This document shows positions 4,293 to 43,378 of a DNA stretch of 64,000 nt, in pieces. The position numbers and the translations under genes are program-made. Below the pieces are notes generated by a model. The model did no database searches. It saw only the letters and a list, made by a program, of their open reading frames with translations, and had not been told where the DNA came from. The stretch covers positions 1 to 64,000 of the forward strand of contig JAZLKX010000046.1 of assembly GCA_045597865.1 (NCBI GenBank), given 5' to 3'. Within the stretch, counting starts at the first letter, position 1. Every line of letters begins with the position of its first letter. Origin of the DNA: Bacilli bacterium (GTDB lineage Bacteria > Bacillota_I > Bacilli_A > RFN20 > CAG-826).

Positions 4293-6299
4293 TTATTGTG
4301 AATTATTTGTAAATTGCATTGGTTGGTTATCGTCGTGTGTGGTTTTCTTTAACCCAAATTTTCTTTCTGCTATTTGTAACATATCTTGTTCTAGCTCATG
4401 TTTCATTATGTTTAATGTTTCTTCATTAACTTGTATTGGATTTAAATTTTTATCAACAACATAATAATAACCATCATCAGCAGGTCCTTCAGTTAAACCT
4501 TTGTAAAATTCTTGTATTTGGTATATTTTCTTTTTATCGGCATAATCATCTATATTTTCAGCAGGAATTACAATACAATGGTCTTTGCCAAAATATAATC
4601 CAATAGCTGCATCTTTAGTAAAGACTGCTATTTTCATATTTCCATAATTTAGATTATCTAAATCTACTTCTTTTGAAAGTTTATCTGATCGTAAACTAAA
4701 ATCTTCGGCTCTACCATTATACATATAAATACCATCTTGTAGTTCAAATTTACCATCTTTAAGTTCAGCTTTACTTATAGAACCTATCGCTTGTTTTACA
4801 GATTTTTCATCAATACCTGTAAAATTATGTTGAACATCTATGTAAGGTACATATTCTACATAAAGGTCTTTAGTAGCATTTTTAAATTCATCTTTTGATA
4901 ATGATTTACCAACTAAATGTCCTATTTTTTCGTAAACATCTTTAAATTTTTCATTAGCTTCATTGTGTATTTTTTGTAATTCACCAATTTGTTGTGCAGG
5001 TACATCGTAACTTACTTGTTTACCATTGATTGTAAAGATTAATTTATTATCTTCAAAATCAATATTAGTTACAGGGTAATCTTTTAAGAAATAATCAGCA
5101 TCAAAATTTCTCCCACTTTTTGAATTAATAGGTAATCCTGTTAATCCATATTCTACCATATCTAAAGTATCTGATGAAAATACTTTTACGCCAAGTTTAT
5201 CAGAGTTTGCATCTAAGAAATTAAATAAATTATCTTTTAATACATTTTTTATAATATAGTTATTTTCTGCTTCTTTTTTACTTAATACTTTACCTTTGTT
5301 ATTAATTATATTATTATAATTTTTTTCTAAATCATTATTGTTTGTATTATAAAGTTCTAGTTTACCATCGAACATATCAGTTGTTTTCTTATTACCATTA
5401 CCACTTCTATCATTATATGGTTTAAATGAAGTATTGTCAGTAGAAGTTGTTATATAATGACGATCTATACCATCCCAAATTCCACTTATAATAGCATCAT
5501 CGAATAATCTTTGTTGCTCAGGAGAGAAATCATCTAGTTTAAATTCACGTTTAAGGTCTTGCATACTTTCGTATAAAGCTCCAAAATATTCTTTATCTTC
5601 ATCGTTTGCTCCTTCACCTCTGCGAAGTTTATCTAGCATAGCCTCTAAGTTAGTGTTAGTAAACTTTTCACCTTTAATATCATACGAACCTCCTTTTGTA
5701 CCTGAACGTACTCCTTTTTGCCCCATTTCTTCTACAAGATTATATATTTGCTTACTCCATGAATGAGATTTACCTGTTCTATTAACAAGATTAGTCATCA
5801 TAGCTTTAGCAGCGTCATGTAATTTTGAAGTAGATAATTCTCTTGTATCTCTAATATCAGGATTAAAGAATATCTCATCAAGAGAATATGTATTTAGTCT
5901 TCTTCCTACTTTCTGCAACTGTGCATCTTTGTCAAAACGTGCATCTTCTTCATCTCTTCTTTTTACAAAGTCTTCGTATTTTGCTTTAAGAGGTGCAATA
6001 TCACTAGCATAATCACGAGCTAGTGCTGCTATTTGTCTATTTACATTAGGATTAAAACCATTCTTAGCAATATAACCAGCAAGGTTTTCTGCGTTAATAG
6101 CATAACTTTCTATTAACTCTTTTGTTTTAGGAGAAAGATTAGGGTCTAAAGTATTTAATAGTTCCCTAGCAGATGCACCTGTCATAAGAGCATCTGCAAA
6201 TGCTTTATCGGTCTTTTCTCCGTATTCTTTAATAAAATCTACGTTATCTTCTATTGGTTTGTAATCTACAAAACTAAAATCTGTTGCATTAATAGCCAT
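4293..6299 (-). CDS. Putative virion cargo protein, 668 aa
   Basis: Long ORF between cargo protein 1 and the giant ORF; crAss-like synteny. Confidence 0.6.
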   Translation of the reverse strand: MAINATDFSFVDYKPIEDNVDFIKEYGEKTDKAFADALMTGASARELLNTLDPNLSPKTKELIESYAINAENLAGYIAKNGFNPNVNRQIAALARDYASDIAPLKAKYEDFVKRRDEEDARFDKDAQLQKVGRRLNTYSLDEIFFNPDIRDTRELSTSKLHDAAKAMMTNLVNRTGKSHSWSKQIYNLVEEMGQKGVRSGTKGGSYDIKGEKFTNTNLEAMLDKLRRGEGANDEDKEYFGALYESMQDLKREFKLDDFSPEQQRLFDDAIISGIWDGIDRHYITTSTDNTSFKPYNDRSGNGNKKTTDMFDGKLELYNTNNNDLEKNYNNIINNKGKVLSKKEAENNYIIKNVLKDNLFNFLDANSDKLGVKVFSSDTLDMVEYGLTGLPINSKSGRNFDADYFLKDYPVTNIDFEDNKLIFTINGKQVSYDVPAQQIGELQKIHNEANEKFKDVYEKIGHLVGKSLSKDEFKNATKDLYVEYVPYIDVQHNFTGIDEKSVKQAIGSISKAELKDGKFELQDGIYMYNGRAEDFSLRSDKLSKEVDLDNLNYGNMKIAVFTKDAAIGLYFGKDHCIVIPAENIDDYADKKKIYQIQEFYKGLTEGPADDGYYYVVDKNLNPIQVNEETLNIMKHELEQDMLQIAERKFGLKKTTHDDNQPMQFTNNSQ

Positions 6300-19939: not shown

Positions 19940-19951
19940 TTTATTCTAATA

Positions 19952-20084
19952 TGTTTATTAAACACATTTAAATTTAATACAAATATAGTGTTTTACAAAC
20001 ACATTTCCAAATTATTTTACAATTATTTTCATTTTTTTTATCTAAAACGATTGTAAATTAATTTTTAGTATGTTTATTAAACAC
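19952..20084 (-). promoter_or_regulatory. Leftward promoter with three palindromic operators
   Basis: - strand TTTGGAAATGTGTTTGTAAAACACTATATTTG (-33/-7); operators at 19952, 19988 and 20071. Confidence 0.75.
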
Positions 20085-20098
20085 ATTTATAGGTAAAA

Positions 20099-21157: not shown

Positions 21158-22378
21158 TTAAAATAAGTCGTTGAATTTCTGCATATTTATTTCCTTTACA
21201 TCTTCAACTACCTTTAGATAATGTTTAAGAGCAGTAAAGGTTTTATGCCCAGTAAATTCCATAACAACTTCAAGAGGAATGCCCAAAGCTATTGAATTTA
21301 CAACAAAAGTTTTCCTTGCACAATGCGAGGTTATCTTGTTGTATTTGGGAGTTATTTTTTCAATTCTTGAATTTCCTTTGAAGTAATTTTTAACAATAGG
21401 TGTATCAATTCCTGCTTTTTTGCAAATTTCTTTTAGTTTTAAATTAAAAGTAATTATATCAAATCGTGGGAATACTCCTATATTGTTGAATTTTTTTTGT
21501 TGTTCTATTATGCCTTTAGAGTATTTATTCAAAGGTATTCTTAAATTTATATTTGGTTTTATAGAAAGGAAAGCTATATAATCATCATGTACATCAACCC
21601 ACTTTAGTTGTTGCATATCAGAAAATCTGAGTCCAGTGAAACAACAGAATAAAAAAGCTCTTAGACATTCACTATCACTTTCTTTTAAGTTAGGCAAAAA
21701 ATTAAAAAGTCTTTCTAATTCTTCTTTCTCTAAATAAACAATTATTGGTTCAGATTTTTTTAATTTAATGGCGTACGATAAGCCATCATTATCATATAAT
21801 CCTTGACCTTTAGCAAATCTTAGTACTGCTTTAAAACAACGTAAATATACAATACAAGTTGTATTTTGTAGATTCTTTGTATAGATTATAAAATCACAAA
21901 ATTCTTGTAATGTATTTTGCGATATATCGTTAATTTTTAGTTCGCTGTTGAAATCATTAACATTACGCATAAAATTATGATAAACTCTAACACTACCAGT
22001 TGTAATATTAGATTTATTATAATCTAAATACTTGTTAAAGATTTCGGCAAAAGATACACCTGACTCATTACTTTTAGACGAATTTATCATTTTTATTTCG
22101 TCTAAAGTAGGTATTCGATTATTTAAATATTCATTTTTTTTAAATAAATCGTCTATTTTAGTAACAATATCTCTTATTGCACTATTAACGTTACTGCATA
22201 AGTCTCTGTTTTTAGGCTTATCAGCCTTAGCCTGTTGCATCTTAGCGTTCCAACAAGTCTCAGGTATAGAATATCCTAGTCGAATATCTACTCTTTGACT
22301 ATTGAATGAAACTCTAACACGAACAGGCTTTAAATCGCTTGTGCTTTTTGCCAAGTCGAATTTAATGTTGTACTTCAT
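21158..22378 (-). CDS. int: Tyrosine integrase (arm-binding, SAM-like and catalytic domains)
   Basis: FTGLRFSD, K, HCARKTF, GH and Y catalytic residues; Bacteroidota-type N-terminal PVRVRVSFN. Confidence 0.95.
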   Translation of the reverse strand: MKYNIKFDLAKSTSDLKPVRVRVSFNSQRVDIRLGYSIPETCWNAKMQQAKADKPKNRDLCSNVNSAIRDIVTKIDDLFKKNEYLNNRIPTLDEIKMINSSKSNESGVSFAEIFNKYLDYNKSNITTGSVRVYHNFMRNVNDFNSELKINDISQNTLQEFCDFIIYTKNLQNTTCIVYLRCFKAVLRFAKGQGLYDNDGLSYAIKLKKSEPIIVYLEKEELERLFNFLPNLKESDSECLRAFLFCCFTGLRFSDMQQLKWVDVHDDYIAFLSIKPNINLRIPLNKYSKGIIEQQKKFNNIGVFPRFDIITFNLKLKEICKKAGIDTPIVKNYFKGNSRIEKITPKYNKITSHCARKTFVVNSIALGIPLEVVMEFTGHKTFTALKHYLKVVEDVKEINMQKFNDLF

Positions 22379-31525: not shown

Positions 31526-32116
31526 TTATTCAGGAAGTGAATTCCCTAATGCTATAATAGCATTTTTTAATTCACTTTTTAGAGTAGTATTTAATTTTGA
31601 ATAAAGTGTTTTTAACTCTGCTTTATTCTTTGCTGTATTAGCAAGCCTTTCATAAGCTTGTTCAGCCGTCTCAGGCACAAGCTCATGTGATTCTTTGTCA
31701 GGATCAGCTTGTTTCATCTCTTCTGTTGGTATCATAAATAATTGGAATAAAGCATATTTTAAAGCTATACTCATAGCTTTATTGCTTGCCTTATCACCAC
31801 TATCCATTCCTTCACCTAATGTTATAACAGAGATATTTGAACCATCTTCTGCATAGAAAGTGAATTTTATTTTCAATAAAGAATAATTAATTACACTTCC
31901 TTTGCTATTAGTTCTTTCATATCTTTGCTGTTCCAATACTTCAGGAGCAACGAATAGCTTATGACACTTCATAGCTGGATTTAACTCGTTCATTACATCG
32001 TCGATGCCTCTAAACATAAATCCTTGCGATTGGTTTTTAGAATTTTTACCAATCGCTGAAACATCTTGCATAACAGCATTAATTGTTTCGAAAATATTTT
32101 TTAATTCTTTTGCCAT
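31526..32116 (-). CDS. ERF-family ssDNA annealing protein
   Basis: IGKNSKN..QGFMFRGIDDV and GEGMDSGDKASNKAMSIALKYAL. Confidence 0.9.
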   Translation of the reverse strand: MAKELKNIFETINAVMQDVSAIGKNSKNQSQGFMFRGIDDVMNELNPAMKCHKLFVAPEVLEQQRYERTNSKGSVINYSLLKIKFTFYAEDGSNISVITLGEGMDSGDKASNKAMSIALKYALFQLFMIPTEEMKQADPDKESHELVPETAEQAYERLANTAKNKAELKTLYSKLNTTLKSELKNAIIALGNSLPE

Positions 32117-32511: not shown

Positions 32512-32540
32512 AGATACAAAATATGTTTATTAAACACAAA
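32509..32540 (-). promoter_or_regulatory. Leftward promoter with palindromic operator
   Basis: TATCTTTG -7 box; TGTTTATTAAACAC at 32524-37. Confidence 0.7.
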
Positions 32541-32799: not shown

Positions 32800-34077
32800 T
32801 TAAGGTTCAACAAAATATTCTTTATAATTTGTTAGACTAGCGTCAATCCAAACATTTTTCTTGTTAATTGGATTGGCTAGTTTCAATCCTTCAAGACTTT
32901 TACATCTTGACAAACCAACATAAGTTTGTCCTGGAGCAAAAGCAGCAGGATTTAAGAATACTTTATCAAGGGTTAACCCCTGACTTTTGTGTATTGTAAT
33001 AGCCCAAGCCAACTTTACGGGAATTTGTTTAAAACTCCCTATTGTTTCTTGGACTCTTGCTTTTTTCTTGGTCTTATATTGAATTTTAGACCAAGTTTCG
33101 TAACCTAGATTATAATCCTTTCCATTTTCTGCTTTAATGGTAATAGCATCATCTTCTAGGCTTGTAACTAATCCTATTAATCCATTGTAATAAGACTTCC
33201 CATAAAGATCTTCGCCATTTTTGCATATCATTACTTTGGCATTGACTTTTAAATGGAGTTTCTCATCAGTTGGATATTCAGATTCAAGGAATTTGCCACT
33301 TACTTCTGCTAAATATATCTTTTCCTCAGAGTCCAATTTCTGTAACTCTTTGTCATTGATATATTTAGCCCCTTTAAATGGCATATCCTTGTAAGGGGTT
33401 AGAATGGTATATGAATTATCCCATTCCCTTGATACACGACCATTAAGGATTTCTTGGTCGGTATCTGTTAGTGTTCCATTTCTAATATTATTAAGGATAT
33501 TCACGAATGTTATATCTTTCTGACGATAAACTTCGTCTAATTCTACTATATAACATTCAATTCCTGATAATTTTAAAGCATCTAAAAAATAATAACCACA
33601 CTTAGGATAAATGTCTTCTAAGGCAGCTTTGTCGCTAGAGGTAACGACAGGTGGTAGTTGAAATAAATCTCCAATTAGAAGTAATTGGACACCACCGAAA
33701 GGAAGTTTGTTGCCTTTTATGTCCTGAAGAAACTCATGGACACAGAATAGTACATCTATCCTAGTCATACTTATTTCGTCAATAATTAATAACTCTAAAT
33801 TCTTTAAAGACATGAATGTTTCCGTCATATAAACATTGTAAGACTTTGACGGATTATAAACTTCTCTTGGTATTTGGAACGTAGAATGTATGGTTGCACC
33901 ACCACAATTTATGGCAGCAATGCCAGTGGGAGCGCATACATAGTAGATTACTCCTAAATCATTTAATTTTTCTTTTAATTGATTCAGTAAATAAGTTTTA
34001 CCTGTTCCTGCTTTTCCTGTGAGAAATAAATTCTTTTTCTTTAAAATTAAATCAAATGCTAATTCTTGCTTTGTCAT
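32800..34077 (-). CDS. PIF1/RecD-like SF1B helicase
   Basis: GKAGTGKT, APTGIAA, IIDEISM, GDLFQLPPV, AITIHKSQG, YVGLSR. Confidence 0.95.
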   Translation of the reverse strand: MTKQELAFDLILKKKNLFLTGKAGTGKTYLLNQLKEKLNDLGVIYYVCAPTGIAAINCGGATIHSTFQIPREVYNPSKSYNVYMTETFMSLKNLELLIIDEISMTRIDVLFCVHEFLQDIKGNKLPFGGVQLLLIGDLFQLPPVVTSSDKAALEDIYPKCGYYFLDALKLSGIECYIVELDEVYRQKDITFVNILNNIRNGTLTDTDQEILNGRVSREWDNSYTILTPYKDMPFKGAKYINDKELQKLDSEEKIYLAEVSGKFLESEYPTDEKLHLKVNAKVMICKNGEDLYGKSYYNGLIGLVTSLEDDAITIKAENGKDYNLGYETWSKIQYKTKKKARVQETIGSFKQIPVKLAWAITIHKSQGLTLDKVFLNPAAFAPGQTYVGLSRCKSLEGLKLANPINKKNVWIDASLTNYKEYFVEP

Positions 34078-35087
34078 CTCTTCTTTCTAAAATCTACATT
34101 ATCTTCAATTACATAGTAATTGAGTTCACAGATGCGAGAGAAAAATCTTTCACCATATCTTTCTCTAATCTCGTCCATAGACAAGTTAGTTGTGATGATG
34201 GTATAGAACTTTCCTTCTGAGCGATATTGAATAATATCCTCAATCGCCTGTGAATGATGCTTATATTTATTCGTTTTGGTCTCAGCACCTAGATCATCAA
34301 TAAATAGTATTGGAACATTCTTTAATCTATTAATAAAACTACCTTTATCTTTAAAGTCATCTTCATAGTCAGCATTAACTATGTCGATTGCGGTAGTATT
34401 GTCGTTCCAATGAAAATTCCACAATTTCCCTAAAAACTCAAATGGTATAATTGGTTTTGTAGAGTAATGCTGTTGGTAAGTTAGGCTATTGACAGCCTTT
34501 ATAAGAGAAGTCTTACCTACTCCACAATTTCCATACACTAATATTCCCTTGTTTAGATTACCTACTACTTTAGATTTATCAGTAGGGTCAAGAGATAGGA
34601 AGGTGTATGTTTTATCACCAATAGTTTTTGAAGAGCAATAAAAAAACCACAAGATTAGATTATGTATAAAAAATTTCGTAGTTGGACCTAAGTCCTTGAA
34701 AGAAATTTCTTTTCCATAATTATTTTTATAAAATCGGTTAATTGAATTTAAAACTTTTTCGTAGTTAAATTCTGTCTCCGATCTGTAAAAATCTTTATAG
34801 TTTTTATTCGTAGTTAAATTTAATTTTTCAAAATAACCTACTCTATCTGTGCCTTTTAATGCAAGATAGTCATTCATAGGATTATTCTGAAAGCAAAATT
34901 GCATCTCGAATAATGCTCTTTCTTTCGGAGTCAATTTCTTTTTATAATCCTCTTTTAACCTATCAAATTCTAGGTTATAGAGTCTTATATATTCATCTTT
35001 ATTCGTAGATGAATTAAAATGCTCCGCAATTTTTTTTCGTTTTTGGAAATCGTTTTGGGCATCTAAATTTATTTTTTTGATTTCCAT
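34074..35087 (-). CDS. DnaC/IstB-like AAA+ ATPase (helicase loader)
   Basis: GNCGVGKT, LFIDDLGAE, TIITTNL...YGERFFSR. Confidence 0.85.
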   Translation of the reverse strand: MEIKKINLDAQNDFQKRKKIAEHFNSSTNKDEYIRLYNLEFDRLKEDYKKKLTPKERALFEMQFCFQNNPMNDYLALKGTDRVGYFEKLNLTTNKNYKDFYRSETEFNYEKVLNSINRFYKNNYGKEISFKDLGPTTKFFIHNLILWFFYCSSKTIGDKTYTFLSLDPTDKSKVVGNLNKGILVYGNCGVGKTSLIKAVNSLTYQQHYSTKPIIPFEFLGKLWNFHWNDNTTAIDIVNADYEDDFKDKGSFINRLKNVPILFIDDLGAETKTNKYKHHSQAIEDIIQYRSEGKFYTIITTNLSMDEIRERYGERFFSRICELNYYVIEDNVDFRKKR

Positions 35088-35105
35088 TTATAAATAAATT
35101 TTCAA

Positions 35106-35138
35106 TAAAAAGCTACGAACAATAGTTATTCGTAGCTA
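35106..35138 (-). terminator. Intrinsic terminator ending the ncRNA-rich leader
   Basis: AGCTACGAA-N9-TTCGTAGCT-TTTT on the - strand. Confidence 0.75.
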
Positions 35139-35335
35139 AAATAAGTCCTTGAATAAAAACAAGCTCTGTCTGCTAACAGATTTAATCACCAGCATTAGGT
35201 GAACTTGTGGGACTATAAAATCTAAGACCACTATCTTACAGTGGGAGATTTCTCTCTTTTTTATTCGCCTCTCACAATCATATATACTTTCCACCTGCAA
35301 TGCCAGTACTCGTAGTGAGGTTCTATTATGATTGA

Positions 35336-35521
35336 TTATTTCCCCATCAATCGAGGGTCGATAGGGTTATTTCTATAAGTGAAATAACCGTAGTCATACC
35401 ATGTTTTTTCTTGGTATGACCATTCCTCTCTATAATGCTCCATTGGAACATTCAAAGAGGAATTATCATTATCTCTCTTGGCATCTTCCCAGCCAAGAGA
35501 GAACAATTCCCATGATAACAT
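35336..35521 (-). CDS. 61-aa hypothetical protein
   Basis: ATG 35521 after an A/T-rich leader; MLSWELFSLGWEDA...WYDYGY. Confidence 0.55.
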   Translation of the reverse strand: MLSWELFSLGWEDAKRDNDNSSLNVPMEHYREEWSYQEKTWYDYGYFTYRNNPIDPRLMGK

Positions 35522-35708
35522 ATTAATTTTGAATTTCAGCTTTATTGACAATATTGTCTTACCACCAGCTGTAGGTTTGCTCAATTTCGGTAGAAGAGAC
35601 TTTATCTACCTAGAAAAACCAACACTATTTCTTAGTGGTTGCTACTATTCTTCACAACAAATGGTAAATCTTACTACAACATTTGTAGTTGTAGTCTTTT
35701 AATCCAAG

Positions 35709-35771
35709 TGCCATAATCAAGAATCGAACTTGATTATCCTGCTTATTACAGGATAGTTACCAAACTATGGC
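35709..35771 (-). ncRNA. tRNA-like RNA lacking a D stem
   Basis: GCCATAG/TTATGGC acceptor, TATCCTG-TAATAAG-CAGGATA arm, TCAAG-TTCGATT-CTTGA T arm. Confidence 0.65.
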
Positions 35772-36043
35772 GTGTCAATTTTGGTTTTTTATGTAGGCAG
35801 ATTTGAAACTGCTCTAACCAATGTATTTCCCCCATTGGCGTGGGTTTTGATGATTAGTACATGAAGTACCAAGTCATCATAAATAAAAAAGGAATAGTTC
35901 TAAACATATCCTTAATGTTTTAATACAGTCATTAACTTGACCCTGACTGCTTGGGTCATTTATAAATTGATTTGTTTTTTTATGTAGGCAGTTTACTCTG
36001 CACTAGATTTAATTATCCCAGTTTTCTCTGGTTAACTACCGAA

Positions 36044-36178
36044 TTATCGTCTTGCTCTTTTGATGAAACAAAGACAATCTTCATAAGAAGTGTATCTTCT
36101 TACTTGGATATTGTCCTCGTAAACAACAAATGAGTAGCCGTCAAACTCGATAGTAAATCTACCGTGTTGTTCGCTCAT
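36044..36178 (-). CDS. 44-aa micro-ORF
   Basis: MSEQHGRFTIEFDGYSFVVYEDNIQVRRYTSYEDCLCFIKRARR after an A-rich leader. Confidence 0.5.
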   Translation of the reverse strand: MSEQHGRFTIEFDGYSFVVYEDNIQVRRYTSYEDCLCFIKRARR

Positions 36179-36348
36179 TTTTTAGCTTTTTAACACGTTA
36201 CTGCCACTAATTTAATTCTATCATCTCTCTAGCAGTGAAAGAGATTTAGAATACCTATTTCTGTTGCCAACTCTATTTCCAAAGGCTTTCTTGGAGAGTC
36301 CGCTTCTACTCGGTTACTATAATTCACCTTTCGACATTGCATTAATCC

Positions 36349-36438
36349 TTATAGGAAAGGAAATACAATGATGACAGCATTTACGATGTAGTACACCGCT
36401 GCTGCTGTCATGCAGCCATAAAGAAGTTTTTCAAACAT
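36349..36438 (-). CDS. 29-aa hydrophobic peptide
   Basis: MFEKLLYGCMTAAAVYYIVNAVIIVFPFL. Confidence 0.5.
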   Translation of the reverse strand: MFEKLLYGCMTAAAVYYIVNAVIIVFPFL

Positions 36439-36516
36439 CTTTATTATTTTTAAAATTTCGATAGCATCTAAAACGTGAACTTATCGCACGAAAAAACTCA
36501 GCTATCACTAGTTTTT

Positions 36517-36577
36517 TTATCCCATCTGCATTTATAGAGGCTTTGGACTCTCACCATAAGGTGGCTGCATTAGATAT
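36517..36577 (-). ncRNA. Twister ribozyme (type P1)
   Basis: AUAUCU^AAUGCAGC-CACC/GGUG-AGAGUCCAAAGCCUCU-AUAAA-UGCAGAUGGGAUA: P2 UGCA/UGCA, T2 GC/GC, T1 UCCA/UGGG, matching the twister consensus as I recall it. Confidence 0.88.
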
Positions 36578-36600
36578 GTTTATTAAACACAAATGTACAG
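36577..36600 (-). promoter_or_regulatory. Leftward promoter with an operator over the start site
   Basis: TACATTTG at 36590-97; TGTTTATTAAACAC at 36577-90. Confidence 0.7.
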
Positions 36601-36664
36601 ATTTTTGTAGAACTACAAAAGTTTTGGTAAGAAATTTGTAGTTATTTCGTAATCTGATATTAAT

Positions 36665-37459: not shown

Positions 37460-37499
37460 AATAATAAAATTTTGAAGTTTATAATTAAGTTTTATGCTT

Positions 37500-38630
37500 T
37501 TTATTTAACATTGCAAGCATACACAATCAACCTACGAGGGTTACCCCTGTCAGTCAAAAATAAGCCCCCACTTCGTTAATTATTCTCCGCTCATATTTTT
37601 TCAAAAAAAAATTAAAAAGACTTTTTTGAATCCAATAATTTCGGATTAATTAATAGATGAAAAATTTTTCTAAAAAAAATTGAAAAAAAATTTTTAAAAA
37701 AAATAGATATAGACAAAGATTAAAAAATGAGATTTAAGACCATTTTTCTTCGGTTTAAGAAACTTTAATATCAAAGATGATAAAGTCATTGATTTTTTAA
37801 AAATAATGTCTTAGAATTAAAATTTTAAAATTTAATAAAAATAAACTTTGAAGAATAAAACCAAGGAAAGATTTAAAAATCGAAAATTGAGTTTAAAAAA
37901 ATGAAAATGGTTTTAGAAATGATTTAAATGGAATTAACAGGATTTTTAAAGATTGAAAAAATTAATAAAGATTTTAGTTAGTGATTAATAGACACAACAT
38001 ATCGAATTTAGCCATTTTTAAACGATTTAAGAGATTTTAATTTGGAAGTTGAACAATTTATCGACTTTTGAAAAATAATGGCTTAAAACGAAGATTTTGA
38101 AGGTTGATTAAAAATTGAGATTGAGGAAAGAGATTTGAAGTTGGAGTTGAAGGATTTTATTTGGACCTCGAAAAAAAATTTTGGGTTGGGGTTTAAAAGT
38201 TCTTTGATTACTTTCTTACAAGAAAGTAATGCCACGCGGCGAGCGGTTTCTCTTTTTCTTTTTTCTGTTTCTTTGCTTTTTTCTTTTTTTATTTTCTTTT
38301 TTCTTTTCTTTTTTCTTTTATCTTTTTTCTCTCTTTACTTCTTTTTCTTTTATGTTACTTTTCTTTTTCTTCGTTTCTCTCTTTTTTCGTTTTTCTTTTT
38401 TCTTTTCTTTTTTCTTTGTTTTTTTTCTTTTTTCATTTCTTTATCTTTTTTCTTTTTCTCTTTATGAGCTTGTCTAAAGTTAGGATATAGTTTACAAAAC
38501 CTTGTTATAGACCTTGTATTGATAGGTATATACTTTACTTTCTGTTAGGTGTATAAAATACACTTAATGAATAAATAAATTGTTAATTGCATAAAAACAA
38601 GGATTTTTTACATTAGAAAAAAAGTTTAAT
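37500..38630. other. Non-coding divergence region between the two arms
   Basis: Gene orientation switches here; extremely AT-rich; contains a polypyrimidine tract. Confidence 0.65.
38246..38464 (+). repeat. Polypyrimidine low-complexity tract
   Basis: ~220 nt that is almost only T and C. Confidence 0.85.
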
Positions 38631-38656
38631 TTTTTTTGAAAAAAGTTGCGAAAAAA

Positions 38657-38688
38657 TTTGGAAATGTGTTTTATAAACACTATATTTG
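38657..38688 (+). promoter_or_regulatory. Rightward promoter with operator
   Basis: TTTGGAAATGTGTTTTATAAACACTATATTTG, near-identical to the leftward promoter at ~19980. Confidence 0.8.
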
Positions 38689-39182: not shown

Positions 39183-39252
39183 TGCGGGGTAGTGTAATGG
39201 TTGCACGTTAGGCTCATAACCTAGAAGTCCTGTTCGATTCAGGCGACCGCTA
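39183..39252 (+). tRNA. tRNA-Met (CAU), initiator-like, imperfect acceptor stem
   Basis: TTAGG-CTCATAA-CCTAG arm, CCTG-TTCGATT-CAGG, 1:72 mismatch. Confidence 0.7.
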
Positions 39253-39289: not shown

Positions 39290-39982
39290 ATGAATGAAGT
39301 AAAGATTTTTGAAAACCAAGAATTTGGTAGTGTAAGAACAGTAGTAAATGGAGACAAAGTTCTTTTTTGTGGCTCTGATGTAGCAAAAGTATTAGGTTAT
39401 GCAAGACCAAATGATGCTATAAATCAACATTGTAAGGGTGATGCGGTGTTTTGCCGTATCATCGACTCACTTGGTAGAGAGCAAGAAGCAAGATTTATTA
39501 CAGAAGGTGATGTTTACAGACTAATTGCTCACTCAAAACTACCAGCAGCACAAAAATTTGAAAGTTGGGTATTCGACGAAGTATTACCAACAATTCGTAA
39601 GACTGGTTCTTATGTACCACAATCATTTGCCGAAGCGTTGAAACTTGCTTACGAGCAACAACTAAAGATTGAACAACAAAGCAAAGAGATTAAAGCTCTA
39701 CAACCAAAAGCAGATTATTTTGACGATTTGGTAGAAAGAAATCTACTGACAAACTTTAGAGATACTGCTAAAGAATTTAATATGAACCAAAAGGTTTTTA
39801 TTAATTGGTTGATGGACAATCACTACATATTTAGAGATAATAAAGGTCAATTAAAACCTTATAACGAACATGTTGTAAATGATTTGTTTAATATTAAAGA
39901 ATGGAAAACAAAAGACAGTACAGGTATTCAAACATTGATTACTTGCAAAGGAAAGGAAACATTTAGACTGTTGATCAAATAA
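39290..39982 (+). CDS. Bro-N plus KilAC/ANT antirepressor
   Basis: FENQEFGSVR...SDVAKVLGY...EVLPTIRKTGSY; PKADYFD...FRDTAK. Confidence 0.9.
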   Translation: MNEVKIFENQEFGSVRTVVNGDKVLFCGSDVAKVLGYARPNDAINQHCKGDAVFCRIIDSLGREQEARFITEGDVYRLIAHSKLPAAQKFESWVFDEVLPTIRKTGSYVPQSFAEALKLAYEQQLKIEQQSKEIKALQPKADYFDDLVERNLLTNFRDTAKEFNMNQKVFINWLMDNHYIFRDNKGQLKPYNEHVVNDLFNIKEWKTKDSTGIQTLITCKGKETFRLLIK

Positions 39983-40349: not shown

Positions 40350-40421
40350 AGAACCTTAGTTTTAAATGGATAGAACAGCTCCCTAAAGGAGAAGATAAGA
40401 GTTCAAGTCTCTTAGGTTCAC
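40350..40421 (+). tRNA. tRNA-like gene with a contracted anticodon loop
   Basis: GAACCT/AGGTTC acceptor, D arm, AAGAG-TTCAAGT-CTCTT T arm; anticodon arm CTCC-CTAAA-GGAG. Confidence 0.6.
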
Positions 40422-43221: not shown

Positions 43222-43308
43222 AGCCTTGTAGTTTAACTGGTAGAACGCTGTATTGCAATAGATAGGGATTGCTTTATGGTAGTGCAGGTTCAAATCCTGT
43301 CAAGGTTG
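43222..43308 (+). tRNA. tRNA-like gene with 15 extra nt in the anticodon loop
   Basis: AGCCTTG/CAAGGTT, GTTT/GAAC D stem, GCAGG-TTCAAAT-CCTGT; 22-nt loop. Confidence 0.65.
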
Positions 43309-43378
43309 CAAAGTACCAAACTGAAAAATTGCAGTTTGGCTGAACATTAGAATATTAATATTAATAAAAAAACATAAT

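What the first reader, a model, noticed from the sequence alone, without database searches (positions are those of the whole stretch)
35106..36600. Ribozyme-headed 1.5-kb structured RNA operon upstream of the replication genes
Seen on the - strand, in order: operator-covered promoter, twister ribozyme, pseudoknot, 29-aa peptide, structured block with a pseudoknot, 44-aa ORF, hairpin repeat, three pseudoknots, second hairpin repeat, tRNA mimic, 61-aa ORF, kissing-loop element, then a terminator just before the DnaC-like gene. Inference: a polycistronic ncRNA/micro-peptide transcript processed into stable RNAs, possibly decoys for defence proteins or nucleases, or an attenuator gating dnaC/PIF1. 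I do not recognise this arrangement as a described system.
Basis: partly seen in the sequence, partly recalled or inferred. Interest (0 to 1): 0.85.

Follow-up and report, generated by a model that had tools for sequence, protein, structure and literature searches.

The report
Twister-headed early leader in crAss-like phage
A gut-type crAss-like phage starts one of its early transcripts with a genuine self-cleaving twister ribozyme, followed by a stretch that is poor in genes and holds a small conserved protein gene and a tRNA look-alike; the grander idea of a 1.5-kb structured-RNA operon is not supported.

Summary
Partly confirmed. The window is a 91.8-kb crAss-like phage contig, probably mis-binned in a MAG.

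**Holds up**
- Window 35106-36600 (- strand) is ORF-poor under three genetic codes.
- It opens with a promoter-like site overlapped by an 18-nt near-palindrome that recurs four times.
- A type-P1 twister ribozyme sits at 36518-36576: Rfam 57.4 bits, below the 67.2 cut-off, E 8.7e-12. The same core occurs in 34 other phage loci, and 10 of 22 pairs show compensatory changes.
- A 62-nt tRNA-like element sits at 35710-35771.
- An intrinsic terminator sits at 35111-35137, 24 nt before the DnaC-like gene.

**Changed**
- The "61-aa ORF" is a real conserved protein gene, with homologues at 77% and 44% identity.

**Does not hold up**
- The region folds no better than the neighbouring PIF1 and DnaC coding sequence.
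- Pseudoknots and kissing loops could not be tested.
- No related phage was found, so covariation beyond the twister cannot be assessed.

**Best reading**
This is an early mRNA leader punctuated by RNA-processing elements, a local variant of the known clustering of ribozymes near phage genes. Interest is moderate.

The parts
36574..36656 (-). Divergent promoter/operator region. It holds the -33-like TTTG (36616-36619), the -7-like TACATTTG (36590-36597) and the 18-nt near-palindrome TGTGTTTAATAAACATAT (36574-36591). It also holds the inverted repeat TTTGTAGTTCTACAAA (36604-36619) and larger imperfect arms at 36598-36619 / 36635-36656.
   Evidence: The promoter consensus is recalled, not tested. 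The transcription start is inferred.
36518..36576 (-). Type-P1 twister ribozyme, a variant subfamily. Cleavage is predicted between U36572 and A36571.
   Evidence: Rfam RF03160 57.4 bits, E 8.7e-12. Covariation on 15 distinct sequences. The cleavage site follows the U-A rule in PMC6154101 and is not assayed.
36349..36438 (-). 29-aa hydrophobic ORF (MFEK + about 24 apolar residues). Coding status is open. It overlaps a strong hairpin (arms 36371-36390 / 36392-36411).
   Evidence: coding score -10.6 bits; z -3.80 for 36300-36440.
36044..36178 (-). 44-aa ORF. Coding status is open.
   Evidence: +1.0 bit. No homologue found. Atlas hits all under 0.9.
35971..35994 (-). Copy A of a 24-nt direct repeat (core CTGCCTACATAAAAAA).
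   Evidence: Only two exact copies in the window. Function unknown.
35780..35803 (-). Copy B of the 24-nt direct repeat. It ends 8 nt before the tRNA-like element.
35710..35771 (-). 62-nt tRNA-like element: 7-bp acceptor stem, 3-bp stub in place of the D arm, long anticodon-like arm, and a T arm with loop UUCGAUU. It is not a canonical tRNA.
   Evidence: Fold z -3.35. The acceptor + T-arm pattern found only this and 3 true tRNAs in the 91.8-kb contig, against 0.275 expected per contig. Not called by ARAGORN default or Rfam tRNA.
35336..35521 (-). Conserved small protein gene (61 aa), predicted as a two-helix hairpin.
   Evidence: Homologues P0006 (77% id, E 3.4e-17) and P0008 (44%, E 6.7e-6). 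Coding score +10.4 bits. AlphaFold2 pLDDT 82.
35365..35502 (-). Array of four long hairpins inside the 61-aa gene: 35472-35502, 35422-35463, 35393-35420 and 35365-35389.
   Evidence: Fold of 35320-35560: -79.9 kcal/mol, z -7.09, 0 of 200 shuffles as stable. Three are perfect stems of 9 bp or more.
35111..35137 (-). Intrinsic-terminator-like hairpin (12-bp stem, then UUUUAUU), 24 nt before the DnaC-like start codon.
34074..35087 (-). DnaC-like helicase-loader gene (context). PIF1-like helicase follows at 32800-34077 and ERF at 31526-32116.

Best explanation
This is the head of an early, - strand transcription unit of a novel crAss-like phage.

**Promoter (inferred)**
A Bacteroidota-type promoter, overlapped by a palindromic operator shared with three other early promoters, starts an RNA about 10-15 nt before the ribozyme cleavage site.

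**Twister (fold shown, cleavage inferred)**
The twister fold is shown by covariation. Cleavage itself is not assayed. It should cut off the short triphosphate leader. The downstream RNA would then carry a 5'-OH and keep the compact ribozyme fold at its 5' end. This probably changes its stability or translation.

**Downstream 1.4 kb**
This is a gene-poor leader/mRNA, not a dedicated ncRNA. It carries one demonstrably conserved small protein gene (61 aa). Its mRNA is packed with four long hairpins. It may carry two more small ORFs (29 aa hydrophobic, 44 aa).

**tRNA-like element (inferred)**
The 62-nt tRNA-like element between them probably serves as an RNase P / 3'-processing site that separates the two halves.

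**Terminator (pattern shown, function inferred)**
The unit ends in an intrinsic terminator 24 nt before dnaC. I found no promoter match between it and dnaC. The replication genes (DnaC-like, PIF1, ERF) therefore probably depend on read-through.
For: **Phage identity**
- The MCP is 48-51% identical to crAss-like phages.
- SD-like motifs precede 2 of 34 long ORFs on the phage contig, against 32-70% on four large MAG contigs.

**Twister**
- RF03160 57.4 bits, E 8.7e-12.
- Same core in 33 IMG/VR loci, cr7_1/cr124_1 and one GTDB contig.
- 94.8% of cells paired against 78.1% shuffled (0 of 500 shuffles reach it).
- 10 of 22 pairs have changes on both sides. Slid controls reach 43% or less.
- Elsewhere it sits 26-67 nt before a same-strand ORF of at least 50 aa in 26 of 34 loci. 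Only 19 of the 34 flanks are distinct.
- The 5' end of the twister 3' fragment is reported as buried (passage of PMC8782182).

**Promoter/operator**.

**61-aa gene**.

**tRNA-like**.

**Terminator**.

**Hairpin enrichment**: 5 of the contig's 27 perfect hairpins lie in 35111-35737. Shuffles give 7.4 per contig.
Against: - No transcription data.
- The twister scores below Rfam's gathering cut-off (57.4 against 67.2).
- The promoter consensus is recalled, and the start site is inferred.
- The tRNA-like element is known from one sequence only, and my pattern test was designed after I saw it.
- ARAGORN calls it only at -ps80. At that setting it also makes 45 calls in the contig and 18-41 in shuffled contigs, so the call is worthless.
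- The 29-aa ORF has a negative coding score (-10.6 bits). The 44-aa ORF has no homologue.
- Only 12% of the region (27% if all three ORFs count) is accounted for as coding. About 1 kb remains unexplained.
- Three terminator-like sites face the + strand inside the region, so antisense transcripts are possible.
Confidence: 0.5

Rival explanations
1. The stretch between the twister and the tRNA-like element (about 36571 to 35772, roughly 800 nt) is a processed, stable non-coding RNA with a function of its own, for example a decoy or anti-defence RNA. The ribozyme and the tRNA-like element would define its ends. The small ORFs in it would be incidental.
For: - ORF-poor under three codes.
- No Pfam match for 10 stop-to-stop fragments.
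- The 29-aa ORF scores as non-coding.
- MFE z -7.56.
- In other phages the same twister precedes 270-500 nt without ORFs (L008, L031, L033, L038, L039).
Against: - Its folding z is matched by PIF1 (-6.69) and DnaC (-5.65) coding segments.
- No Rfam family at E <= 10 apart from the twister.
- No homologue anywhere, so no covariation can be shown.
Confidence: 0.15
2. The region is chiefly a regulatory leader that gates the replication genes. The terminator at 35111-35137 attenuates transcription. Upstream hairpins act in antitermination, like lambda nut or HK022 put RNAs. Timing of dnaC/PIF1/ERF expression would then depend on read-through.
For: - A terminator lies 24 nt before the dnaC start, and I found no promoter match in between.
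- There is a hairpin hotspot just upstream.
- The dnaC 5' region is itself strongly folded (z -6.52).
- Operator-type palindromes, an integrase and a BRO/ANT anti-repressor suggest lambda-like control.
Against: - No alternative (anti-terminator) pairing upstream of the terminator was found.
- The hairpins lie inside a conserved protein gene.
- 1.4 kb is very long for an attenuator.
- No resemblance to nut or put was tested. Those comparisons are recalled only.
Confidence: 0.15
3. The region is mostly decaying or selfish sequence: a mobile twister module, a degenerate tRNA pseudogene and remnants of lost early genes, with only the 61-aa gene under selection.
For: - The twister is the only part shared with any other phage, and it occurs in unrelated contexts.
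- The tRNA-like element lacks a D arm and a proper anticodon loop.
- Most ORFs score as non-coding.
Against: - Phage genomes rarely keep 1 kb of junk.
- Perfect hairpins are enriched locally (5 of 27 in 630 nt).
- An intact acceptor/T-arm helix is unlikely to survive decay by chance.
Confidence: 0.15
4. The inverted repeats mark the DNA replication origin next to the replication genes, not RNA structure.
For: - The region lies directly upstream of dnaC/PIF1.
- It holds many perfect palindromes.
- Perfect palindromes cannot tell DNA from RNA.
Against: - The palindromes are all different, so they are not iterons.
- G+C is 33.5%, above the contig mean.
- The - strand folds better, with more G-U pairs: 48 of 480 against 23 of 423.
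- A better origin candidate lies at 37460-38650. It is AT-rich, has a 217-nt pyrimidine tract and sits at the GC-skew minimum.
Confidence: 0.05

Closest known systems
Type-P1 twister self-cleaving ribozyme (Rfam RF03160)
   Same: - Full-length match to the model (positions 1-68).
- Helices covary.
- The conserved UAA, GCC, AAGCC, UAAA and GA-GG blocks are present.
- Both pseudoknot complementarities are present.
   Different: - It scores below the gathering cut-off.
- The hairpin between P2 and the pseudoknot-forming stem-loop is only 4-6 bp.
- Loop CCC and 3' GGG of the consensus are CCA and UGG in all 35 copies, a mutually compensating change. That these bases form pseudoknot T1 is my inference.
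- The pseudoknot stem is AGA/UCU instead of CCG/CGG.
Ribozyme-rich regions near phage genes (twister, hammerhead, hatchet and pistol clusters, used to discover the 'RAGATH' motifs; name and history recalled)
   Same: - Phage context and intergenic position among small genes.
- Other contigs with this twister also carry Hatchet (L027, L034) and RAGATH-1 hammerhead (L002, L032, L037).
- The literature notes the association and that the function is unknown (passages of PMC6765202 and PMC8782182).
   Different: This phage has only one recognisable ribozyme in its whole 91.8-kb contig. Here it sits at the head of a unit rather than between cistrons.
tRNA-like processing signals (mitochondrial tRNA punctuation, MALAT1 mascRNA, phage tRNA-cluster stable RNAs; recalled)
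   Same: A compact acceptor/T-arm helix embedded in a longer transcript, which is the minimal shape RNase P recognises.
   Different: Processing is not shown. It is a single sequence. There is no CCA-like 3' end (ACUU follows the acceptor stem).
Large phage-associated ncRNAs (GOLLD, ROOL) and phage tmRNAs
   Same: A phage location, with tRNAs or tRNA-like elements nearby. Other twister-bearing crAss-like contigs do carry permuted tmRNA.
   Different: No Rfam match at E <= 10. No ARAGORN tmRNA at default, -ps90 or -ps80.
Leader-based control of phage early operons (lambda N/nut, HK022 put; recalled)
   Same: A long leader with hairpins and a terminator ahead of the replication genes, with operator palindromes at early promoters.
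   Different: No sequence or structural likeness was tested. No N-like protein was identified.

Membership tests
Twister ribozyme, type P1 (RF03160) | Score at or above Rfam's curated gathering cut-off | tested here: not met
   57.4 bits against 67.2. E is 8.7e-12 in 2 kb, 2.8e-10 in 64 kb and 1.8e-12 per genome.
Twister ribozyme, type P1 (RF03160) | Nested helices P1, P2 and the two hairpins, supported by covariation | tested here: met
   15 distinct sequences. 94.8% of cells are paired, and 10 of 22 pairs change on both sides. 0 of 500 shuffles reach the covariation score, and slid controls reach 43% or less. The sequences were gathered with a pattern that fixes the core, so core columns cannot vary.
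Twister ribozyme, type P1 (RF03160) | Two pseudoknots (T1, T2) between the terminal loop and the internal loops | tested here: inconclusive
   Complementarity is present in 15 of 15 sequences but invariant (helices 3 and 6). Against the Rfam consensus, the CCC-to-CCA and GGG-to-UGG changes compensate each other. Which bases pair is partly recalled.
Twister ribozyme, type P1 (RF03160) | Site-specific self-cleavage at the U-A step, giving 2',3'-cyclic phosphate and 5'-OH | not testable with these tools
   The U36572-A36571 step is present. The chemistry follows passages of PMC6154101 and PMC8782182.
tRNA | Full cloverleaf with D arm and a 7-nt anticodon loop carrying U33 | tested here: not met
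   No call by ARAGORN default and no Rfam tRNA hit at E <= 10. The D arm is a 3-bp stub and the loop has A at position 33. The -ps80 call is at noise level.
tRNA-like element (acceptor/T-arm mimic) | 7-bp acceptor stem abutting a 5-bp or longer T stem with a TTCRANN loop | tested here: met
   4 hits in the 91.8-kb contig on both strands: 3 true tRNAs and this one. 40 shuffles average 0.275. The test was designed post hoc.
tmRNA (standard or permuted) | tRNA-like domain plus tag reading frame and pseudoknots | tested here: not met
   No ARAGORN tmRNA at default, -ps90 or -ps80. The -ps70 calls fall on both strands and are noise. No Rfam tmRNA hit.
Intrinsic terminator | G+C-containing hairpin followed by a U run | tested here: met
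   12-bp stem with 4 G-C pairs, then TTTTATT. 5 such sites lie in 2 kb against 0.7 +/- 0.9 in shuffles. Termination itself is not tested.
Ribozyme cluster ('RAGATH'-type region) | Two or more self-cleaving ribozymes close together | tested here: not met
   Only the twister is found in the whole contig. The feature is met in other contigs carrying this twister (14 of the 34 loci scanned, plus L002).
Protein-coding gene (61-aa ORF) | Homologues with protein-level conservation | tested here: met
   P0006 at 77% and P0008 at 44% identity, with 20 invariant columns. Three longer repetitive hits (P0007, P0009, P0010) were set aside as low complexity.

The most novel reading that the evidence does not exclude
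The twister and the tRNA-like element are the two processing ends of a roughly 800-nt stable, phage-specific non-coding RNA made at the very start of infection. The hairpin-packed 61-aa mRNA behind it would be a second processed product. That would make this a ribozyme-plus-tRNA-mimic 'RNA punctuation' system in a crAss-like phage, serving host takeover or counter-defence rather than ordinary mRNA trimming.
Probability: 0.15. Interest if true: 0.7.

Novelty: new variant of a known kind. Interest (0 to 1): 0.4.

Why it matters
**An open question made more tractable**
The biological role of twister and other small self-cleaving ribozymes in bacteria and phages is still open (passage of PMC6765202). 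This work shows a sub-threshold twister variant, under clear selection, that is spread through crAss-like and related gut and rumen phage contigs. It includes the published genomes cr7_1 and cr124_1, where nothing is annotated at the site. It usually sits just ahead of a small gene. That gives a concrete and abundant system for asking what ribozyme cleavage does to phage early mRNAs.

**Not found in print**
My searches found no paper combining crAss-like, twister and ribozyme (0 papers). Of the 12 papers holding crAss-like and ribozyme (9 listed), none had both terms in its title or abstract. The one I opened (PMC10136315) mentions ribozymes only as self-splicing introns.

**Limits**
The specific 1.5-kb arrangement is known from one genome, so its weight is limited.

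Tried and rejected
**Readings tested and rejected**
- Hidden long gene under another code. TAG=Q and table 4 give no ORF over 136 aa, and the DnaC stop fits table 11.
- Pseudogene remnants. 10 stop-to-stop fragments gave no Pfam hit at E <= 1. The small ORFs gave no PHROG hit below E 0.09.
- Other Rfam families. Nothing credible at E <= 10 in the region. Nothing besides tRNAs at E <= 0.05 in the rest of the contig.
- tmRNA: rejected.
- Replication origin: judged unlikely (see rivals).

**Controls that weakened a claim**
- ARAGORN -ps80 support for the tRNA-like element is rejected as noise after the shuffled control.
- 'Exceptional RNA structure' is rejected after coding-sequence controls. The sliding-window difference is marginal: mean z -2.45 over 35 windows against -1.83 over 50 windows, one-sided p 0.044, and the windows overlap.

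**Searches for relatives of the locus that found nothing useful**
- DnaC-like and PIF1 proteins in viral contigs.
- DnaC-like protein in 5.8 billion proteins: only itself at E <= 1e-10.
- DNA of the region in 61 related genomes: only short chance-level hits.
- The 61-aa family in viral, metagenome and genome contigs and in the phage records.
- DNA probes.
- The operator 18-mer hit 15 unrelated viral stretches. The tblastx step printed nothing and may not have run.
- L057 shares only the twister.

**Uninformative**
- Fold search of the 61-aa model: no match at E <= 0.001.
- Both Atlas look-ups stayed under 0.9.

**Could not be used**
- Read laying could not be used without run ids.
- The look-up of encoding contigs was not called because it is declared closed. 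The DNA behind P0006, P0008, P0011 and P0012 was therefore out of reach.
- No supplementary files were consulted.
Full report
**Where we are**

The window is the first 64 kb of a 91,795-bp contig (C46) of a 1.74-Mb MAG. The contig is a crAss-like phage:
- Its major head protein is 48-51% identical over 99% of its length to those of cr85_1, cr112_1, cr106_1 and the Bacteroides PhiCrAssBcn phages (PHROG 11589).
- SD-like motifs precede only 2 of 34 long ORFs on C46, against 32-70% on four large contigs of the MAG. The contig is therefore probably mis-binned, and its translation signals fit a Bacteroidota host.
- Genes run on the - strand up to about 37.5 kb and on the + strand from about 38.6 kb. 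The cumulative GC skew has its minimum there.
- Downstream of the finding, on the - strand, lie a DnaC-like loader (34074-35087), a PIF1-like helicase (32800-34077) and an ERF recombinase (31526-32116).

**Is the stretch really gene-poor?**

Yes.
- Between 35106 and 36600 no ORF exceeds 82 aa under table 11. TAG=Q and table 4 do not open a long frame.
- Ten stop-to-stop fragments have no Pfam hit.
- I trained a 3-periodic Markov model on 42 long ORFs of the contig. True genes score +0.105 +/- 0.029 bits/nt and wrong frames score -0.25. In the region it is clearly positive only over the 61-aa ORF and weakly positive over the 44-aa ORF.

**The promoter end**

- The pattern TTTG-N17-23-TAnnTTTG matches at 36590-36619 on the - strand. 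This is the Bacteroides promoter consensus as I recall it. The window holds 18 matches against 6.94 +/- 2.77 in shuffles.
- An 18-nt near-palindrome, TGTGTTTAATAAACATAT (36574-36591), overlaps the -7-like box and runs into the first three bases of the ribozyme.
- It recurs exactly or with one mismatch at 32521-32538, 20068-20085 and 19949-19966. All copies are on the - strand ahead of early gene blocks (0.56 expected).
- A second inverted repeat, TTTGTAG-TT-CTACAAA, and larger imperfect arms cover the divergent intergenic space.
- 'Operator-covered promoter' is therefore a fair description. The binding protein and the start site are inferred.

**The twister**

- Rfam's type-P1 twister model matches 36518-36576 (-) end to end. 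The score is 57.4 bits and E is 8.7e-12. This is below the curated cut-off of 67.2. It is the only such hit in the whole MAG.
- A pattern from its core found 33 IMG/VR stretches and one GTDB contig. BLAST found it in cr7_1 and cr124_1, where nothing is annotated.
- I aligned 15 distinct sequences, taken from 35 copies of which many are identical. On this alignment 94.8% of cells pair, against 78.1% in shuffles. 10 of 22 pairs change on both sides. Sliding the partners drops pairing to 43% or less.
- The core columns were fixed by the search pattern and cannot vary.
- Against the Rfam consensus, the loop CCC-to-CCA and 3' GGG-to-UGG changes compensate each other. So do all three pairs of the loop-bearing stem. 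That the first pair of triplets forms pseudoknot T1 is my inference.
- I conclude that this is a real twister of a variant subfamily. Cleavage at U36572/A36571 follows the U-A rule described in PMC6154101 (passages). It is not assayed.

**What the twister does elsewhere**

- In 26 of 34 other loci, a same-strand ORF of at least 50 aa starts 26-67 nt after it.
- In 20 of 34 loci, a same-strand ORF ends within 110 nt before it.
- The downstream proteins are unrelated to one another, and several are small membrane proteins.
- Only 19 of the 34 flanks are distinct. L002 and L025 are the same phage.
- Five loci (L008, L031, L033, L038, L039) instead have 270-500 nt without ORFs after it.
- I scanned 14 of the 34 loci, plus L002, against Rfam. 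Two carry Hatchet, three carry a RAGATH-1 hammerhead, and several carry tRNAs and permuted tmRNA.
- This is the known clustering of self-cleaving ribozymes near phage genes, whose purpose is unsettled (passages of PMC6765202 and PMC8782182).
- In the window the ribozyme is the only one in the contig. It stands at the head of a unit.

**The rest of the region, element by element**

1. *36517-36440.* This stretch is A/U-rich and unstructured (z +0.73). It leads to the 29-aa ORF, which has a polar start and then about 24 apolar residues.
   - Its coding score is -10.6 bits, which is expected for so hydrophobic a peptide but is no support.
   - It overlaps a strong hairpin (z -3.80 for 36300-36440).
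2. *The 44-aa ORF.* It scores +1.0 bit and has no homologue by two word-based searches.
3. *The two 'hairpin repeats'.* They are a 24-nt direct repeat at 92% identity. Its 16-nt core occurs exactly twice in the window. The stem inside is only 4 bp.
4. *The tRNA mimic (35710-35771).*
   - It is real as a shape: 7-bp acceptor stem, 3-bp D stub, long anticodon-like arm, 6-bp T stem with loop UUCGAUU, z -3.35.
   - A search for 'acceptor 7 bp + T arm' over both strands of the contig returns three genuine tRNAs and this element only. Forty shuffles average 0.275.
   - The test was devised after I saw the element.
   - ARAGORN's relaxed call is worthless: 45 calls in the contig and 18-41 in shuffled contigs.
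   - The same pattern in the 34 other twister loci returns ordinary tRNAs, tmRNA domains and two uncalled 73-75-nt elements. The short mimic is therefore not a regular companion of the twister.
5. *The 61-aa ORF.* It is a protein gene.
   - An exhaustive HMMER search of 1.84 billion representatives gave five hits at E <= 0.001.
   - Two are small proteins with the same pattern: P0006 (51 aa, 77%, E 3.4e-17) and P0008 (58 aa, 44%, E 6.7e-6).
   - I set aside three long repetitive proteins.
   - AlphaFold2 predicts a two-helix hairpin (pLDDT 82, pTM 0.70). It has no structural match.
6. *The hairpin array inside that gene.*
   - The gene holds four long hairpins. The fold of 35320-35560 gives -79.9 kcal/mol and z -7.09, with 0 of 200 shuffles as stable.
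   - In hairpin 1 the two arms are the codons for FSLG and AKRD. The 44% homologue has KLG and ASV there. No codon choice can keep that stem, so at least this hairpin is not conserved with the protein. This is an inference from the genetic code.
7. *The terminator (35111-35137).* It fits the pattern and lies 24 nt before the dnaC start. I found no promoter match in between.

**Is the region specially structured?**

Only locally.
- Perfect hairpins with stems of at least 9 bp number 27 in the contig, against 7.4 in shuffles. Five of them lie within 35111-35737.
- Globally the signal is not specific. The 746 nt between the twister and the tRNA-like element have z -7.56 by the tool (20 shuffles) and -5.99 in my script (12 shuffles).
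- Equal-length sense-strand segments of PIF1 and DnaC give -6.69 and -5.65. Seven other coding segments give -0.87 to -4.56.
- Sliding windows differ only marginally.
- The - strand folds better than the + strand (-445.5 against -381.4 kcal/mol). That may reflect base composition.

**Most likely mechanism**

I commit to the following reading, at about 0.5.
1. An operator-controlled early promoter fires.
2. The nascent RNA folds into the twister and cleaves about 10-15 nt from its start.
3. The downstream RNA carries a 5'-OH and keeps the ribozyme fold, in which that end is reported to be buried (passage of PMC8782182). This should shield it from 5'-end-dependent decay.
4. The transcript carries small early genes.
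5. The tRNA-like element offers an RNase P / 3'-end processing site that splits it.
6. The terminator limits flow into dnaC-PIF1-ERF.

The fold of the twister, the coding status of the 61-aa gene and the presence of the motifs are shown. Transcription, cleavage, processing and read-through are inferred.

**Novelty and limits**

- The ribozyme is a new variant within a known class, in a known kind of context.
- The arrangement is so far unique to one genome. No relative of this phage could be found despite eleven searches.

Noticed in passing
window 37460-38650: A second non-coding stretch of about 1.2 kb lies at the strand switch and the cumulative GC-skew minimum. It is very AT-rich (24% G+C) with many GATTT/AAAATT words, then a 217-nt almost pure pyrimidine tract at 38247-38463. 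The 110-aa ORF at 38135-38467 is probably spurious. This is a candidate replication origin or regulatory hub.
   Followed up: partly
window 19980-20011 (-), 38657-38688 (+); contig C46 76993-77005 (+): A second promoter-like family, GGAAATGTGTTT(T/G)TAAAACACTATATTTG, holds a related palindrome followed by a TAnnTTTG box. It differs from the four-copy TGTGTTTAATAAACATAT motif.
   Followed up: partly
whole contig C46 against the other contigs of G000: The phage contig lacks Shine-Dalgarno-like motifs (2 of 34 long ORFs). The MAG's large contigs have them before 32-70% of long ORFs. The phage is probably mis-binned and belongs to a different (Bacteroidota-like) host.
   Followed up: partly
L002 (cr7_1) 5997-6055 and 4956-5037; cr124_1 39705-39755: Published crAss-like genomes carry an unannotated twister. 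cr7_1 also carries a RAGATH-1 hammerhead above Rfam's cut-off, in intergenic spacers among small genes.
   Followed up: partly
L027 1999-2130 (-), L034 1659-1790 (-): Hatchet ribozymes (100.4 bits) lie about 2.8 kb downstream of the twister on the same strand, in IMG/VR phage contigs.
   Followed up: no
L008, L031, L033, L039 (about 370-500 nt after the twister); L038 (about 275 nt): In these phage contigs the twister is followed by a shared, ORF-free, fairly G+C-rich sequence with no Rfam match at gathering score (L008, L038 and L039 scanned). It may be a ribozyme-headed ncRNA in other phages.
   Followed up: no
window 32800-35087 (-): The PIF1 and DnaC-like coding sequences fold far better than shuffles (z -6.7 and -5.65 for 746 nt; 34900-35145 z -6.5). 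The unusual folding signal therefore covers the whole early replication block, not just the gene-poor part.
   Followed up: partly
window 35243-35256, 35673-35695, 35831-35844 (+ strand): Three terminator-like hairpins followed by T runs face the + strand inside the finding. Together with two on the - strand this makes 5 sites against 0.7 expected. They could end antisense transcripts or insulate the module.
   Followed up: no
window 43222-43309 (+), 39184-39251 (+), 40350-40421 (+): The tRNA cluster on the late strand includes one tRNA that ARAGORN reads with a four-base anticodon (gcaa). Two weak tRNA matches (39.4 and 34.3 bits) were not called by ARAGORN at default.
   Followed up: no
window 21158-22378 (-), 39290-39982 (+): A tyrosine-integrase-like gene and a BRO-N/KilAC anti-repressor gene suggest a temperate or repressor-controlled lifestyle for this crAss-like phage.
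   Followed up: no
L002 11156-11222 (+) and equivalents in L007, L010, L015, L017, L032, L037: Short (58-67 nt) tRNA-like units with reduced D arms lie at or just after the 3' end of the permuted tmRNA genes of crAss-like phages. One is annotated as tRNA-Cys in cr7_1. Their architecture resembles the window's 62-nt mimic.
   Followed up: partly
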